Below are positions 12,624 through 55,611 of a DNA stretch of 64,000 nt, one piece after another. The stretch lies in the sequence record PQ306573.1; one strand, given 5' to 3'. Position 1 is the stretch's first letter; each line of letters starts with the position of its first letter. The notes under the pieces are model-generated. The model made no database searches. It saw only the letters and a program-made list of their open reading frames with translations, and was not told the origin of the DNA. The DNA comes from Escherichia phage vB_EcoM_PTE-Eco05. The position numbers were made by a program, and so were the translations under genes.

Positions 12624-12631
12624 TATTTATA
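12624..12631 (-). promoter_or_regulatory. late promoter TATAAATA for gene 34
   Basis: Plus-strand TATTTATA at 12624-12631, about 35 nt upstream of the gene 34 ATG. Confidence 0.7.
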
Positions 12632-12646
12632 AATGAGTAAAAGACT

Positions 12647-12709: not shown

Positions 12710-13627
12710 ATGGATTTAGAAATGATGTTGGATGAAGATTACAAAGAAGGTATTGCGCTTGCAGACTTTAGTAACATTGCATTGGCAGCTGCATTAAACA
12801 ACTTTGAAGACGGCGATAAAATTACTGTTCCGATGGTTCGCCATGTAATCTTGAATTCAATTCGTAAAAACGTAGTGATGTTCCGTAAGCAAGGCTATAC
12901 AAAATTTGTATTGTGTATGGATAATGCTACTTCAGGTTATTGGCGTCGTGACTTTGCTTACTATTACAAGAAAAATCGTAAAACCGATCGTGAAGCTTCA
13001 AAGTGGGATTGGGAAGGATATTTTACTGCACTCCATCAAGTTGTTGATGAGATTAAGAAATACATGCCATACGTTGTAATGGATATTGACAAGTATGAAG
13101 CGGATGACCATATCGGTGTATTAACTAAATATTTGTCATTAGCCGGTCATAAGGTATGTATTGTTGCATCAGACGGTGACTTTACACAATTACACAAATA
13201 TCCTAACGTTAAACAGTGGTCGCCACCACAGAAAAAATGGGTTAAAATTAAGAATGGTTCTGCTGAAATTGATTGCATGACTAAAATTCTTAAAGGTGAC
13301 CGTAAAGACGGCGTTGCATCTGTTCGAGTTCGTGGCGACTTCTGGTTTACCAGAGTTGATGGTGAACGAACTCCGAGCATGAAAACAACGATTATTGAAG
13401 CAATTGCCAATGACCGTTCTCAATCTGAAGTATTATTAAGTGCAGAAGAATATAAACGGTATCAAGAAAATTTGGTTCTCATTGATTTTGATTATATCCC
13501 TGATAATATTGCTTCAACCATTATAGAGTATTATAACTCATATAAACCACAACCTAAAGGCAAGATTTATTCATACTTTGTAAAATCCGGTCTTTCTAAA
13601 TTAACAAGTGTAATTAATGAATTCTGA
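12710..13627 (+). CDS. rnh: RNase H (5'-3' exonuclease / flap endonuclease)
   Basis: 305 aa, MDLEMMLDEDYKEGI...IYSYFVKSGLSKLTSVINEF, near-identical to T4 RNase H as recalled. Confidence 0.97.
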   Translation: MDLEMMLDEDYKEGIALADFSNIALAAALNNFEDGDKITVPMVRHVILNSIRKNVVMFRKQGYTKFVLCMDNATSGYWRRDFAYYYKKNRKTDREASKWDWEGYFTALHQVVDEIKKYMPYVVMDIDKYEADDHIGVLTKYLSLAGHKVCIVASDGDFTQLHKYPNVKQWSPPQKKWVKIKNGSAEIDCMTKILKGDRKDGVASVRVRGDFWFTRVDGERTPSMKTTIIEAIANDRSQSEVLLSAEEYKRYQENLVLIDFDYIPDNIASTIIEYYNSYKPQPKGKIYSYFVKSGLSKLTSVINEF

Positions 13628-13634
13628 GGTAAAC

Positions 13635-13904
13635 ATGGCTAAGAAAGAAGCAGTTGAATTTAATCAAGATGTGCATGGTGAAGAACTGGCTAAACTAGTC
13701 AAGGAAGCTTCCGATAACAAACTTAAAATTTCTGGTTATAATGAACTGATTAAAGACATTCGTACTCGTGCTAAAGAAGAGCTTGGTGTCGATGGAAAAA
13801 TGTTTAATCGTTTGTTAGCTCTTTATCATAAAGACGCTCGTGACCAATTTGAAGCTGAAAACGAAGAGGTAGTCGAGCTTTATGACACAGTTTTCACTAA
13901 GTGA
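13635..13904 (+). CDS. dsbA: dsDNA-binding protein DsbA (late transcription enhancer)
   Basis: Start moved to MAKKEAVEF...; 89 aa matching T4 DsbA. Confidence 0.9.
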   Translation: MAKKEAVEFNQDVHGEELAKLVKEASDNKLKISGYNELIKDIRTRAKEELGVDGKMFNRLLALYHKDARDQFEAENEEVVELYDTVFTK

Positions 13905-14220
13905 TATTAAACCGGTTGATGAGGCCGGTTTATCTGAACAAGAATTAGCAGTAAAACACGATAAAGATGATATCGCTAAATTGCTTGATCGGCAAGAAAA
14001 CGGATTTATTATCGAATCCATGGTTGAACAATTTGGTATGTCTTATTTAGAAGCAACAACTGCTTTCTTGGAAGAAAATTCTATTCCAGAAACACAATTT
14101 GCTAAATTTATTCCTACAGGAATTGTTGAAAAAATTACAAGCGAAGCAATTGACGAAAACATGCTTCGCCCATCAGTTGCTCGTGGTGAAAAAACTAATA
14201 CGTTAGATTTCTTATTATGA
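13882..14220 (+). CDS. 33: late transcription co-activator gp33
   Basis: 112 aa, MTQFSLSDIKPVDEAGLSEQEL...KTNTLDFLL matches T4 gp33. Confidence 0.95.
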   Translation: MTQFSLSDIKPVDEAGLSEQELAVKHDKDDIAKLLDRQENGFIIESMVEQFGMSYLEATTAFLEENSIPETQFAKFIPTGIVEKITSEAIDENMLRPSVARGEKTNTLDFLL

Positions 14221-44516: not shown

Positions 44517-45046
44517 TCAAGCAATCCAATAATTTCTGCTATACCCTTAATAGGACCATTAGGGCCGGGAATAGCAATAGTTGTCGAAAGGTCTTCTGCC
44601 CATTTGATTACAAAAGCAGGCATCTCAAGGAAAGAAATTTCTTTCTCTTCGTCATTAACTTTTATTAAGCAATTTGATAGCATTTCACTGATTGTAGCGA
44701 ATTGTTCAAATTTGCCTGGGGGTCTAAAATAAAAAGTATTACCTTGAAATTGGAATTCTGTTCGTTGGCATACATAGACGTCATCTAGTCTATAAGTGAA
44801 TCCATCTTTTTCAACTTCAGACTTAAGTTTGTTATTAAATTCCAATATGTGTAGACATGCAAAATCAAAATCTGCGGGACTCATATTTTTACAAATAGAA
44901 TCGGCTAAGATTTTCATGTTTTCGTCAGGACCTTTAACGTCCTTTAAAAGATTATAATGTTTGAGTCCAAATTTGGGAATCATTACTTTTTTATTAGACT
45001 GTGGTAGAATTATTTTCTTTAGAGGTAGAATCAGATTTAAGTTCAT
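44513..45046 (-). CDS. 28: baseplate hub distal subunit gp28
   Basis: 177 aa, same length and position as T4 gp28; ATGA overlap with gene 29. Confidence 0.9.
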
Positions 45047-46166
45047 TTTTAACCTTAACTGGGTTAACAGGTTCTAACACCATTGAGTTGGTAAACATGT
45101 ACAGATGAGTTTGTGAGTTGTTATTTGATAACTCATGAATAACTTCATCTACGTAAAATTCGGATTTGAATTGGTTCTTTTGGTCGACAAATATAATTTT
45201 AGTAGCAGGCGTTATGTTAAAATTACCTGTAGTAGTGCATTTAGCATATCCATCATATTGAGCCATTGTCTGAAGACGACTTGCTTCTTCAAATCCATTA
45301 CGATAGGTCATTTCAGAATATCCACCGGATCTTGACACAAGAATAGCATTATCACCATCGCCTGTAACAATAACCGGAATAGATGTATCTAAAAATGAAT
45401 GAGCGAATATCGTGGCGTTTTTAATAGGGTCTCGTGTAAATTGGTTAGCTTTAGTCATCCAGGTGAAATCCCATACTAATGGATACTCAAGCTCTTGAAT
45501 ATACTGACCTACGGTATTTGGCTCGCCTACAACCATCTTAATGCCTTCCTGACCAATAAGAGTATCGTAGTCAATCATGTTTACGCCTAAAATATCTTGC
45601 CATACGAATACGAACTTATCACTCGCTGTAGCAAGTCCTAATTCTCTGACATATGCCAAATAATCATCAAATGTGCTTGTCCAAGGAATATCAGGAACAT
45701 AAGCATTAATAGTGTTTATTGGCGGAGTAATTAACGTACGGTCTTTATATATGACACCTAACATTTCACGTATAGATTCTCCTGCGTCTGGGAAGAATGG
45801 TCGCCCAAATTTAAGGTTCTCTATAGAATGTATTGTTCCAAGCTCAATTGCAATAATATTGTCGCCTTTTGAGTCCACAGACACAGAATAATGTCTACAT
45901 CCGTAAATTCGAGTTCTAACTTGGAGAGGTGTGTTTGAATTTGAAACAGAGATTTGGACTATCTGTCTACCATCCATTTTAGTGTGGATGTTTTTAGTGT
46001 CATAAAATTGAAGAATCCCTTCATTTCTTCCATATAACGAATCTCGCATGGTTAAAGTTGTTATTGTTGCCGCGAGTTCAACGTATCTATTTTCTTGCCA
46101 AGCCGAATAATCTTGATATAATTTAACGCTTAAGTTAGGATATCCTGGACGTTGGAATACTGTCAT
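44994..46166 (-). CDS. 27: baseplate hub subunit gp27
   Basis: 390 aa; size and position match T4 gp27; 3' end overlaps the gene 28 start by about 50 nt. Confidence 0.92.
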
Positions 46167-46915
46167 TTTTTATGGTCCTTTTCTACTAATGTTAAAGCAA
46201 TACCACGTTCAACAGGAATCATTTGCATAATAGAATCCAATGTGTATTGACTCTTTACTAGTGAATGGTTTATCTGATAGAATGTAAAAATCTCATCAGG
46301 GTTAACTAACAATTTAAAAACCTCTAAGATATCAGTATATGTTTTAACATGACGTTCACAACAACCTAATCTAAGGGTCAAATTAATAGGATTCATAGAA
46401 GCAATAACCTTCTCGAGCGAGTCAATGTCTATTGCTTCTATTACTTGGATTTGGTTCTCTTCAGTCAAATCATTCCATGGGTACCATTCATCATTATAAT
46501 ATATTTCTTTTATGTTTTCACTTATCATTAATGCCTTGTTGTCATAAAACTTTTCAGGGAAAGAAAAACGTATTTTTATACCAGCAACATCAAGTTCAGG
46601 TTCGACTAGTTCTTTTTGATATATCTCAAATGGTGCAGTTTTTTCTTTAGAGCATTTAGGGCAAGTGAAAATAACGGGAACTTTTGTTTTGCCTATAGAG
46701 CCTGCAAAAACTTGCAGGAATATAAATGGTTGCCATGTTTTAGGGTATTCGTTAAAATAATCATCAATCAGATCGGCAATTATTTCTTTTTGTTCTTGTG
46801 GCGAACGATGTTCGATATCATTTCTAACTAGTAAAAAGTCTCTATAATCCGCTACGGTGAACGGCTTGAAACGATGAACACCATCCGGTAATTTACAACG
46901 AATTATATTAGCCAT
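46163..46915 (-). CDS. 51: baseplate hub assembly protein gp51
   Basis: 250 aa; position upstream of 27 and size match T4 gp51. Confidence 0.88.
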
Positions 46916-46932
46916 AATTACTCCTTTTCTAT

Positions 46933-46944
46933 TATTTATAAATA
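46933..46944. promoter_or_regulatory. overlapping divergent late promoters (TATTTATAAATA) for gene 51 (-) and gene 26 (+)
   Basis: Plus strand reads TATAAATA at 46937-46944 (19 nt before the gene 26 ATG); minus strand reads TATAAATA from 46940 to 46933 (18 nt before the gene 51 ATG); the two octamers share 4 bp. Confidence 0.65.
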
Positions 46945-46962
46945 CACAATAAAGGAGTTAAC

Positions 46963-47589
46963 ATGTACAAATATACGTTTACCGTACGTTTAGGCGATAA
47001 AGAAGTGAATTGTAGAGCCTTTACTTTAAAAGAATATTTAGGACTCATAGGTGCGCGGGCTACCGGTACTATTGAATCAGCAGTGAACAATATTATCACT
47101 AATTGCTCTAACGCTAAAAACTTGACTAAACAAGAAGCCGAGTTATTGTTGGTAAATCTGTGGGCACATTCATTAGGTGAAGTGAATCAAGAACACACCT
47201 GGAATTGTTCCTGTGGGCATTCATTTCAAGTCTATATGAATTTATTGCACACTCAATTAGATGAACAGGCCGATCCCTGGTATTCGTTTAGTGGTATTAA
47301 AATTAAGTTCCGTCAACCTAAATTATTTGACGATAAAAATATCGCATTAATGATTGCTTCATGTATTGAGGCCGTTTTTGTCAATGGAGAGTCCATCCCT
47401 GTTGAAGATTTAACTGAAGCAGAAATAAACGACCTTTATGGCCTTATAACGGAAGATGACATGATCAATATTAAAAATCTTTTAGTATCACCATCAATTT
47501 ATCTAGCAACCCCTATTAAATGTCCCAAATGTGGGGCGTCACACGTTCACACAATACGAGGCCTCAAAGAATTCTTTGAGTTACTATAA
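46963..47589 (+). CDS. 26: baseplate hub subunit gp26
   Basis: 208 aa, same length as T4 gp26; C-terminal CPKCG zinc-ribbon-like motif; divergent from gene 51. Confidence 0.88.
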   Translation: MYKYTFTVRLGDKEVNCRAFTLKEYLGLIGARATGTIESAVNNIITNCSNAKNLTKQEAELLLVNLWAHSLGEVNQEHTWNCSCGHSFQVYMNLLHTQLDEQADPWYSFSGIKIKFRQPKLFDDKNIALMIASCIEAVFVNGESIPVEDLTEAEINDLYGLITEDDMINIKNLLVSPSIYLATPIKCPKCGASHVHTIRGLKEFFELL

Positions 47590-47987
47590 TGTCTAATATC
47601 AATAAACTTTATTCAGATATCGACCCAGAAATGCGTATGGATTGGAACAAGGACGTTGCTCGTTCTGTAGGACTTCGTTCTATTAAAAATAGTCTTCTTG
47701 GCATAGTGACAACTAGAAAAGGCTCACGCCCCTTCGACCCTGAATTTGGATGCGATTTGGTTGATGAACTTTTCGAGAATATGACACCACTTACAGCCGA
47801 TACGATTGAGCGTAATATCCAGGCAGCTGTTCGTAACTACGAGCCACGCATCGACAAACTTTCTGTAAGTGTAACGCCAGTATATGATGACTATACGGTT
47901 ATAGTAGAGATTAGATTTTCGGTCGTAGACAACCCTGACGATATTGAACAAATTAAACTTCAGTTAGCGTCAAGCAATAGAGTGTAA
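47589..47987 (+). CDS. 25: baseplate wedge subunit gp25
   Basis: 132 aa, MSNINKLYSDIDPEMRMDWNKDVARS...IKLQLASSNRV, near-identical to T4 gp25. Confidence 0.95.
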   Translation: MSNINKLYSDIDPEMRMDWNKDVARSVGLRSIKNSLLGIVTTRKGSRPFDPEFGCDLVDELFENMTPLTADTIERNIQAAVRNYEPRIDKLSVSVTPVYDDYTVIVEIRFSVVDNPDDIEQIKLQLASSNRV

Positions 47988-48012
47988 TGCTTCAAGGCAA
48001 CCTATGTATAAT
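47986..48012 (+). promoter_or_regulatory. MotA-dependent middle promoter for uvsY (MotA box AATGCTTCA plus TATAAT)
   Basis: TGCTTCA at 47988-47994 and TATAAT at 48007-48012 with middle-promoter spacing. Confidence 0.6.
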
Positions 48013-48067
48013 GGTTTTAGGTCCTTCCGATACAGCCGGGAGATTATTAGTTAAAAGAGAGAATATT

Positions 48068-48481
48068 ATGAAGCTGGAAGATTTACAGGAAGAGTTAGAC
48101 GCAGACTTAGCTATTGATACGACAAAGTTGCAATATGAGACGGCGAATAATGTTAAGTTATACAGCAAATGGCTACGTAAGCACTCATTTATTCGTAAAG
48201 AAATGTTGCGTATAGAGACTCAGAAGAAAACTGCTCTAAAAGCAAGATTAGACTACTACTCGGGACGAGGTGACGGTGATGAATTCAGTATGGACCGATA
48301 CGAGAAATCTGAAATGAAAACTGTCCTGGCTGCAGATAAAGATGTGCTTAAAATAGAGACTACTTTACAATACTGGGGAATTTTACTTGAGTTCTGTAGT
48401 GGTGCACTTGACGCAGTTAAATCTCGTAGTTTTGCACTTAAACATATCCAGGATATGCGAGAATTTGAAGCGGGGCAATAA
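48068..48481 (+). CDS. uvsY: recombination mediator UvsY
   Basis: Start trimmed to MKLEDLQEEL...; 137 aa, near-identical to T4 UvsY. Confidence 0.95.
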   Translation: MKLEDLQEELDADLAIDTTKLQYETANNVKLYSKWLRKHSFIRKEMLRIETQKKTALKARLDYYSGRGDGDEFSMDRYEKSEMKTVLAADKDVLKIETTLQYWGILLEFCSGALDAVKSRSFALKHIQDMREFEAGQ

Positions 48482-55597: not shown

Positions 55598-55605
55598 TAT
55601 TTATA
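55598..55605 (-). promoter_or_regulatory. late promoter TATAAATA for gene 24
   Basis: Plus-strand TATTTATA at 55598-55605, about 28 nt upstream of the gene 24 ATG. Confidence 0.7.
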
Positions 55606-55611
55606 AAGATT

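What the first reader, a model, noticed from the sequence alone, without database searches (positions are those of the whole stretch)
46933..46944. Overlapping back-to-back late promoters sharing a 12-bp palindromic core (TATTTATAAATA)
In the 47-bp gap between the divergent baseplate genes 51 (-) and 26 (+), the late-promoter octamer TATAAATA occurs on both strands with a 4-bp overlap. Each copy sits 18-19 nt upstream of its ATG, with a Shine-Dalgarno sequence in between. The two promoters therefore occupy almost the same DNA and should compete for, or alternately bind, the gp55/gp33/clamp-loaded RNA polymerase.
Basis: seen in the sequence. Interest (0 to 1): 0.45.

Follow-up and report, generated by a model that had tools for sequence, protein, structure and literature searches.

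The report
Back-to-back late promoters, genes 51/26
Two T4-type late promoters sit back to back in one 12-base palindrome between baseplate genes 51 and 26; the arrangement is real and strongly conserved, but the same site was already listed as a promoter pair for phage RB69.

Summary
TATTTATAAATA lies at 46933-46944, in the 47-bp gap between gene 51 (-, ATG 46915) and gene 26 (+, ATG 46963). It holds TATAAATA on both strands with a 4-bp overlap, and an AAGGAG Shine-Dalgarno on each side.

The window is a Mosigvirus, and its gap is identical to that of RB69. Nolan et al. 2006 already listed two overlapping, opposed late promoters at exactly this RB69 gap. T4 carries the same 12-mer in its 51/26 gap.

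Of 26 loci found through gp51 homology (100% down to 44% identity), 22 keep the exact 12-mer. These cover Tequatro-, Mosig-, Karam-, Gelderland-, Gapriver-, Kagamiyama-, Jiaoda- and Muldoonvirus and one or more Acinetobacter phages. The bases right beside the 12-mer vary freely, so both octamers are under selection. Four bases is also the largest overlap that keeps both octamers perfect.

The expected RNA starts are 23 bp apart. Published footprints of the activated complex reach about -40, so the two promoters should exclude each other. That step is inferred, not shown.

New here: gp51 and gp26 are paralogs (both PF12322), so the locus is nearly mirror-symmetric. Leaders are only about 12-13 nt.

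Verdict: a real feature, already known in kind. Interest is low to moderate.

The parts
46933..46944 (.). 12-bp palindrome TATTTATAAATA, the union of the two late-promoter octamers. The dyad axis lies between 46938 and 46939.
   Evidence: Exact in 22 of 26 homology-ascertained loci.
46937..46944 (+). Late-promoter box TATAAATA for gene 26 (P26), taken as positions -13 to -6.
   Evidence: Positions -13 to -6 as stated in Nolan 2006. The RB69 equivalent is Pl:118672.
46933..46940 (-). Late-promoter box TATAAATA for gene 51 (P51), taken as positions -13 to -6.
   Evidence: The RB69 equivalent is Pl:118620.
46949..46951 (+). Predicted start of the 26-25 late transcript. Position +1 by rule is 46950. 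The leader is about 13 nt.
   Evidence: Inferred from the -13 to -6 rule applied to the sequence. Not mapped.
46927..46927 (-). Predicted start (an A) of the late transcript that begins with genes 51 and 27. The leader is about 12 nt.
   Evidence: Inferred in the same way. Not mapped.
46952..46957 (+). Shine-Dalgarno AAGGAG of gene 26, beginning at about +3 of the predicted mRNA.
   Evidence: One arm of the inverted repeat reported.
46921..46926 (-). Shine-Dalgarno AAGGAG of gene 51, beginning at about +2 of the predicted mRNA.
   Evidence: The other arm of the inverted repeat.
46163..46915 (-). Gene 51, baseplate hub assembly protein, 250 aa, Pfam PF12322.
   Evidence: 69% identical to T4 gp51.
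46963..47589 (+). Gene 26, baseplate hub protein, 208 aa, Pfam PF12322. A paralog of gp51.
   Evidence: 62% identical to T4 gp26.
47589..47987 (+). Gene 25, baseplate wedge protein. It lies downstream of gene 26 and is probably in the same late transcript.
   Evidence: PF04965.
44994..46166 (-). Gene 27, baseplate hub protein. It lies downstream of gene 51, overlaps it by 4 nt, and is probably in the same late transcript.
   Evidence: PF09097 and PF09096.
13882..14217 (+). Gene 33, the late-transcription co-activator. It is part of the machinery that would read these promoters.
   Evidence: 99% identical to RB69 gp33, annotated.

Best explanation
The 12-mer is a pair of genuine T4-type late promoters, each an 8-bp TATAAATA box read by RNA polymerase carrying gp55 and gp33 and activated by the gp45 sliding clamp. 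The two boxes are placed back to back with the largest overlap (4 bp, TATA) that leaves both at perfect consensus. One promoter drives genes 26 and 25 rightward. The other drives gene 51, gene 27 and the hub genes beyond them leftward. Transcripts should begin near 46950 (+) and 46927 (-), 23 bp apart. That gives leaders of only 12-13 nt that start almost at the Shine-Dalgarno sequence. An activated late complex extends upstream to roughly -40, so a polymerase at either promoter would cover the other promoter, its start site and its ribosome-binding site. Only one promoter can then be occupied at a time on a given DNA molecule. Clamp activation is directional, so the two promoters are probably fired by clamps of opposite orientation. 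What is shown: the sequence, the gene identities, the conservation, and the earlier listing of this pair in RB69. What is inferred: promoter activity in vivo, the start sites, mutual exclusion, and the role of clamp orientation.
For: The sequence and spacing are as described. The window's gap is identical to that of RB69. Nolan et al. 2006 list Pl:118620(+) and Pl:118672(-) in RB69, and both fall in the 118623-118669 gap. T4 has the same 12-mer in its 50-bp 51/26 gap, and so does phage fPS-2, where one of the two octamers is annotated 'predicted late promoter'. The exact 12-mer is present in 22 of 26 loci found through gp51 homology, in 16 different flanking contexts. In those contexts the four bases on either side show only 31-56% majority-base frequency. 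Variants keep the design: Aeromonas phages have the 10-bp palindrome TATTTAAATA, and a Krischvirus has TATTTAGT-ATTT-TATAAATA. Both genes are first in their direction and are orthologs of T4 late genes. Gene 33 is in the window. Footprint and clamp polarity come from the review PMC2988020.
Against: No transcript 5' ends for these genes could be retrieved, in this phage or in T4. The T4 dRNA-seq preprint's table of start sites is not held. The review itself warns that not all 50 listed T4 late promoters have been shown to be active in vivo. The leaders here are shorter than at other TATAAATA sites in the window: 17-18 nt from box to ATG, against mostly 22-34 nt elsewhere. Genes 55 and 45 lie outside the window.
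Confidence: 0.85

Rival explanations
1. Only one of the two octamers is a working promoter. The other is a by-product of an AT-rich, partly self-complementary consensus, and its gene is transcribed from elsewhere.
For: TATAAATA begins with the self-complementary TATA, so partial palindromes arise easily. Two 11-of-12 copies occur in the window at 12624 and 55598, where the second strand faces genes preceded by what look by eye like sigma-70-type early or middle promoters. The fPS-2 record annotates only the gene 26 promoter.
Against: T4 late promoters have no conserved sequence upstream of -13. A single promoter would therefore leave the outer four bases of the other octamer free to drift, yet all 12 bases are invariant in 16 different flank contexts. 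The variants change symmetrically (TATTTAAATA). Each gene is the first in its direction, and no other TATAAATA lies in the gap.
Confidence: 0.07
2. The palindrome is mainly a binding site for a dimeric DNA-binding protein, for example DsbA or an unknown regulator, which controls hub-gene expression. The promoter reading would then be secondary.
For: It is a perfect 12-bp dyad. DsbA is reported to bind A/T-rich sites that overlap two late promoters, and dsbA is present in the window at 13617-13901.
Against: The conserved block is exactly the union of the two octamers and nothing more. The palindromy is fully explained by packing two consensus boxes. The reported DsbA affinity is in the micromolar range and the gene is non-essential. 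In phage Aeh1, whose late-promoter consensus is CTAAATA, the palindrome at another divergent late junction changes to TATTTAGCTAAATA. It tracks the promoter consensus and not a fixed operator sequence.
Confidence: 0.05
3. The second octamer is there by chance in AT-rich intergenic DNA.
For: The gap is AT-rich, and 4 of 100 shuffles of the window produced one exact 12-mer somewhere.
Against: The 12-mer sits in the same gap in phages whose gp51 is only 44-72% identical to the window's.
Confidence: 0.01

Closest known systems
RB69 predicted late promoters Pl:118620(+) and Pl:118672(-) (Nolan et al. 2006, PMC1524935, Additional File 5)
   Same: The intergenic sequence is identical to the window's. 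The genes are the same, and both octamers were already called as late promoters in overlapping 43-bp windows.
   Different: Nothing differs in sequence. That paper gives coordinates only. I found no comment in it on the palindrome, the 4-bp overlap or mutual exclusion.
T4 genes 51 and 26, intergenic region 116429-116478 of NC_000866.4
   Same: The same 12-mer sits at 116450-116461, with the same divergent genes and a Shine-Dalgarno on both sides. The review says 50 late-promoter sites are listed for T4. From memory, not checked here, the T4 genome review of Miller et al. 2003 lists late promoters for both genes.
   Different: The T4 gap is 50 bp, with a 21-nt spacer on the gene 26 side against 18 nt here. 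The flanking bases differ.
Aeh1 gene 4 / gene 48 junction (Pl:122785 and Pl:122835)
   Same: Two late promoters lie back to back and form a palindrome between divergent late genes, with a Shine-Dalgarno on both sides.
   Different: The gene pair is different and so is the consensus (CTAAATA). The palindrome is the 14-mer TATTTAGCTAAATA, so the boxes abut instead of sharing four bases.
RB69 gene 4 / gene 53 junction (Pl:80613 and Pl:80684)
   Same: Two consensus late promoters lie on opposite strands within one 61-bp gap between divergent late genes.
   Different: The arrangement is crossed, not back to back. Each box lies inside the other gene's leader, so the predicted transcripts overlap by about 5 nt.
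Bacterial back-to-back divergent promoters in general (own knowledge; not tested here)
   Same: Two promoters on opposite strands share upstream DNA, so occupancy of one can hinder the other.
   Different: Here recognition is confined to one 8-bp box per promoter, which lets the recognition elements themselves overlap. The activator is a sliding clamp that has an orientation but no binding site.

Membership tests
T4-type late promoter (gp55/gp33/gp45-dependent) | An 8-bp box TATAAATA about one helical turn upstream of the start (-13 to -6), with no -35 element needed | tested here: met
   Perfect octamers at 46937-46944 (+) and 46940-46933 (-). Definition taken.
T4-type late promoter (gp55/gp33/gp45-dependent) | Lies directly 5' of an ortholog of a T4 late gene | tested here: met
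   The gp51 and gp26 orthologs are 69% and 62% identical to the T4 proteins, both match PF12322, and genes 27 and 25 lie downstream.
T4-type late promoter (gp55/gp33/gp45-dependent) | The phage encodes the co-activator gp33 | tested here: met
   Window 13882-14217 is 99% identical to RB69 gp33.
T4-type late promoter (gp55/gp33/gp45-dependent) | The phage encodes the late sigma factor gp55 and the sliding clamp gp45 | not testable with these tools
   These genes are expected outside the 64-kb window. The window is about 98-99% identical in this region to complete Mosigvirus genomes. Their gene 55 and gene 45 were not inspected.
T4-type late promoter (gp55/gp33/gp45-dependent) | Primary RNA 5' ends about 6 nt downstream, appearing late and dependent on gene 55 | not testable with these tools
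   No start-site table could be retrieved. This needs dRNA-seq or primer extension.
T4-type late promoter (gp55/gp33/gp45-dependent) | The box is conserved at the orthologous position in related phages | tested here: met
   22 of 26 loci keep both boxes exactly. The other four have variant or shifted boxes.
Back-to-back overlapping divergent promoter pair | Two promoters on opposite strands fire away from each other and their recognition elements share bases | tested here: met
   The octamers share 46937-46940. The predicted starts are 23 bp apart and point outward.
Back-to-back overlapping divergent promoter pair | Occupancy is mutually exclusive, or the two outputs are coupled | not testable with these tools
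   Inferred only, from published footprint data: gp33 near -39 and -36/-35, plus a 13-bp clamp extension.
Palindromic operator for a dimeric regulator | Dyad conservation beyond what the promoter consensus alone requires | tested here: not met
   Invariance stops exactly at the edges of the 12-mer. The neighbouring four positions on each side show 31-56% majority-base frequency. In Aeh1 the palindrome changes along with the promoter consensus.

The most novel reading that the evidence does not exclude
The locus may be the relic of an inverted duplication of a single cassette of promoter, Shine-Dalgarno sequence and PF12322 gene, with its mirror axis in the middle of the TATA. On this reading the palindrome works as a direction switch. 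gp45 clamps have an orientation set by the strand on which they were loaded, so clamps arriving from one side or strand fire only the 26-25 unit and clamps of the other orientation fire only the unit beginning with gene 51. The balance between the two hub-gene transcripts would then depend on how replication forks and nicks are distributed around the site.
Probability: 0.12. Interest if true: 0.5.

Novelty: already known. Interest (0 to 1): 0.2.

Why it matters
It shows how far a phage can compress transcription signals. The late promoter is a single 8-bp box, so two of them can share four bases and serve two operons from 12 bp. The site would be a clean natural test bed for two questions: how a sliding-clamp activator that has an orientation but no binding site chooses between two opposed promoters, and whether two promoters that cannot be occupied together set the ratio of baseplate-hub proteins. 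For genome annotation it is routine. The pair was already listed for RB69, and T4 has the same sequence.

Tried and rejected
1. I looked for promoter annotation in T4 records (NC_000866, AF158101 and T4T HM137666). None is annotated at this site.
2. I tried to read the T4 genome review (PMC150520). It is not held.
3. I looked for T4 start-site tables in the NAD-cap dRNA-seq preprint and in the DksA RNA-seq paper. The start-site table is not held and there were no relevant hits.
4. Seven full-text searches returned results; two more failed on a too-short term. None of them turned up a discussion of overlapping, palindromic or divergent late promoters at genes 26 and 51.
5. A hairpin or cruciform role was tested. 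The 53-nt gap folds weakly as single-stranded DNA (-4.6 kcal/mol, z = -1.84), and the pairing comes from the two opposed Shine-Dalgarno sequences. I rejected it as a functional structure.
6. The sigma-70-type scan found only weak matches near the gap (10 of 12 at 46931-46902), and the total for the region was no more than shuffles gave. It was not pursued.
7. The near-copies of the 12-mer at 12624 and 55598 are a late promoter facing genes preceded by what look by eye like sigma-70-type promoters, not a second late-late pair.

Full report
**What is in the sequence**

Positions 46933-46944 read TATTTATAAATA, a perfect 12-bp palindrome. It contains TATAAATA at 46937-46944 on the + strand and at 46940-46933 on the - strand, and the two copies share the four bases TATA.

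The flanking reading frames are 46163-46915 (-, 250 aa) and 46963-47589 (+, 208 aa). The gap between them is 47 bp. An AAGGAG Shine-Dalgarno lies on each side, at 46952-46957 (+) and 46926-46921 (-). From the end of each octamer to the A of its ATG is 19 nt for gene 26 and 18 nt for gene 51.

The exact 12-mer is expected 0.04 times per window by shuffling. The octamer occurs 19 times against 8.2 expected.

**What the genes are and where the window comes from**

The two proteins are 69% and 62% identical to T4 gp51 and gp26. Downstream lie gene 27 on the - strand and gene 25 on the + strand.

The region is about 98-99% identical to many Mosigvirus genomes, the RB69 group. The 47-bp gap is identical to that of RB69. 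Gene 33, the late-transcription co-activator, and dsbA are present in the window at 13882-14217 and 13617-13901.

**Already described**

Nolan et al. 2006 (PMC1524935) list 31 predicted RB69 late promoters in their Additional File 5. Two of them are Pl:118620 (+) and Pl:118672 (-). The RB69 26/51 gap is 118623-118669. With the octamer at offset 25-32 of each 43-bp window, those two entries are exactly the two octamers of this palindrome.

T4 has the same 12-mer at 116450-116461, in its 50-bp 51/26 gap. The Tequatrovirus fPS-2 has it too, and its record annotates one of the two octamers as 'predicted late promoter'. The T4 GenBank and RefSeq records carry no promoter features here.

I could not open the T4 genome review. 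In seven full-text searches I found no discussion of the overlap or the palindrome itself.

**Conservation**

I collected loci by gp51 homology, not by the motif. Fourteen came from IMG/VR and ten from GenBank phages of different genera. The window and T4 bring the total to 26.

Of these 26 loci with divergent 51/26 genes, 22 have the exact 12-mer. They fall into 16 distinct flanking contexts. In those contexts the four positions on either side of the 12-mer show only 31-56% majority-base frequency.

The genera with the exact 12-mer include Tequatrovirus, Mosigvirus, Karamvirus, Gelderlandvirus, Gaprivervirus, Kagamiyamavirus, Jiaodavirus and Muldoonvirus. One IMG/VR contig (L014) has the exact length of Acinetobacter phage Acj61, and its gp51 is 50% identical to the window's.

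T4 late promoters have no conserved sequence upstream of -13. Invariance of all 12 bases therefore means that both octamers are under selection.

The four exceptions keep the idea but change the details:

| Locus | Group | Arrangement in the gap |
|---|---|---|
| L026, L028 | two Aeromonas phages | 10-bp palindrome TATTTAAATA (TTTAAATA on both strands, 6-bp overlap) |
| L025 | a Krischvirus | TATTTAGT-ATTT-TATAAATA, back to back without overlap |
| L016 | unnamed contig | one box weakened to TATAAATG, with a second consensus box 6 bp away |

RB43-like phages have genes 51 and 26 in tandem on one strand, so they have no such gap.

**Why 12 bp**

Laying TATTTATA and TATAAATA end to end, the only overlaps that leave both perfect are 2 bp and 4 bp. 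This follows directly from the sequences. The 12-mer is therefore the tightest possible packing of two consensus boxes.

**How it most likely works**

With the box at -13 to -6, the starts fall at about 46950 (+) and 46927 (-), 23 bp apart and pointing outward. The leaders are 13 and 12 nt, and each begins 2-3 nt before its Shine-Dalgarno. These are among the shortest box-to-ATG spacings in the window: 17-18 nt, against mostly 22-34 nt at the other TATAAATA sites that sit before genes.

The review of T4 late transcription (PMC2988020) states three relevant things:
- Open late complexes are stable and site-specific.
- gp33 lies near -39 and -36/-35.
- The clamp adds 13 bp at the upstream end of the footprint.

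A complex at either promoter would therefore cover the other promoter, its start site, its Shine-Dalgarno and its start codon. Mutual exclusion follows by inference.

The same review states that activation is polar. [quoted passage not shown] So the two promoters are probably served by clamps of opposite orientation. None of this could be tested here.

**Rivals**

- A single working promoter with a by-product partner is contradicted by the invariance of the outer four bases on both sides.
- A protein operator, for example for DsbA, is not needed. The conserved block equals the union of the two boxes. In Aeh1, whose consensus is CTAAATA, the palindrome at another divergent late junction becomes TATTTAGCTAAATA, so it follows the promoter consensus.
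- A DNA hairpin is weak and is explained by the two opposed Shine-Dalgarno sequences.

**Things found along the way**

- gp51 and gp26 are paralogs. Both match Pfam PF12322 over the full model, and they align at 25% identity with E = 4e-11. The two ATGs lie 23.5 and 24.5 bp from the dyad axis. The whole unit of promoter, Shine-Dalgarno, ATG and gene is thus nearly mirror-symmetric, which suggests an inverted duplication or a later inversion of a tandem pair.
- A scan of IMG/VR for CTCC-(3-16)-TATTTATAAATA-(3-16)-GGAG found 96 stretches, of which 80 were returned. Twenty-three of these are the 51/26 junction. Thirty-nine others lie between divergent reading frames. Several of those encode structural proteins: tail tube, tail-tube cap, portal, gp25-like wedge and PAAR. 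Two are contigs of 58-62% G+C. The same palindrome therefore seems to recur at other divergent late-gene junctions in other myovirus-like phages. The search pattern required a Shine-Dalgarno on both sides, and no chance expectation was computed.
- RB69 genes 4 and 53 use a different, crossed layout of two late promoters.

**Verdict**

The feature is real and strongly conserved, and it is almost certainly a pair of functional late promoters. As an annotation it is already known, both from the RB69 list and from the identical 12-mer in T4. The mechanistic idea of mutual exclusion or switching is plausible and, as far as I could find, untested. Interest is low to moderate.

Noticed in passing
window 46163-46915 (-) and 46963-47589 (+): gp51 and gp26 are paralogs. 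Both match Pfam PF12322 over the full model, and they align at 25% identity with E = 4e-11. Their ATGs lie 23.5 and 24.5 bp from the palindrome's axis, so the locus is a near-mirror-image gene pair.
   Followed up: partly
L033-L110 (IMG/VR loci): The same 12-mer, with a Shine-Dalgarno on each side, lies between divergent reading frames in 39 loci that lack gp51 and gp26. Flanking proteins include tail tube, tail-tube cap, portal, gp25-like wedge and PAAR. Two of the contigs have 58-62% G+C (L078 and L080). No chance expectation was computed.
   Followed up: partly
L026 and L028 (Aeromonas phages), gene 26/51 gap: The palindrome is shortened to the 10-mer TATTTAAATA. This gives TTTAAATA on both strands with a 6-bp overlap, a different register of the same back-to-back design.
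   Followed up: no
L128 487-538 (Aeh1, gene 4 / gene 48 gap): The 14-bp palindrome TATTTAGCTAAATA lies here. It consists of two Aeh1-type CTAAATA late boxes back to back, at a different divergent late junction.
   Followed up: partly
L130 428-488 (RB69, gene 4 / gene 53 gap): Two consensus late boxes lie in a crossed layout, each inside the other gene's leader. The predicted transcripts overlap by about 5 nt at their 5' ends.
   Followed up: no
L029 and L030 (RB43-like Klebsiella and Pectobacterium phages): Genes 51 and 26 lie in tandem on the same strand, after a tail-tube or baseplate-tail-tube-initiator gene. The divergent layout is therefore not universal among T4-like phages.
   Followed up: no
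L016 about 1440-1500: The box on the gene 26 strand is weakened to TATAAATG. A second perfect TATAAATA on that strand sits 6 bp nearer to gene 51, which would give crossed promoters instead of back-to-back ones.
   Followed up: no
window 12624-12635 and 55598-55609: Two 11-of-12 copies of the palindrome (TATTTATAAATG and TATTTATAAAGA). Each is a - strand late box. The first precedes the 1277-aa tail-fibre gene, and the second precedes a 427-aa gene. Each faces a + strand gene preceded by what looks, by eye, like a sigma-70-type promoter.
   Followed up: partly
window 47987-48481 (+): The longest uvsY reading frame is 164 aa, the same length as RB69's annotated 495-bp CDS but longer than the 414-bp T4 CDS. 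The true start codon may lie downstream of 47987.
   Followed up: no
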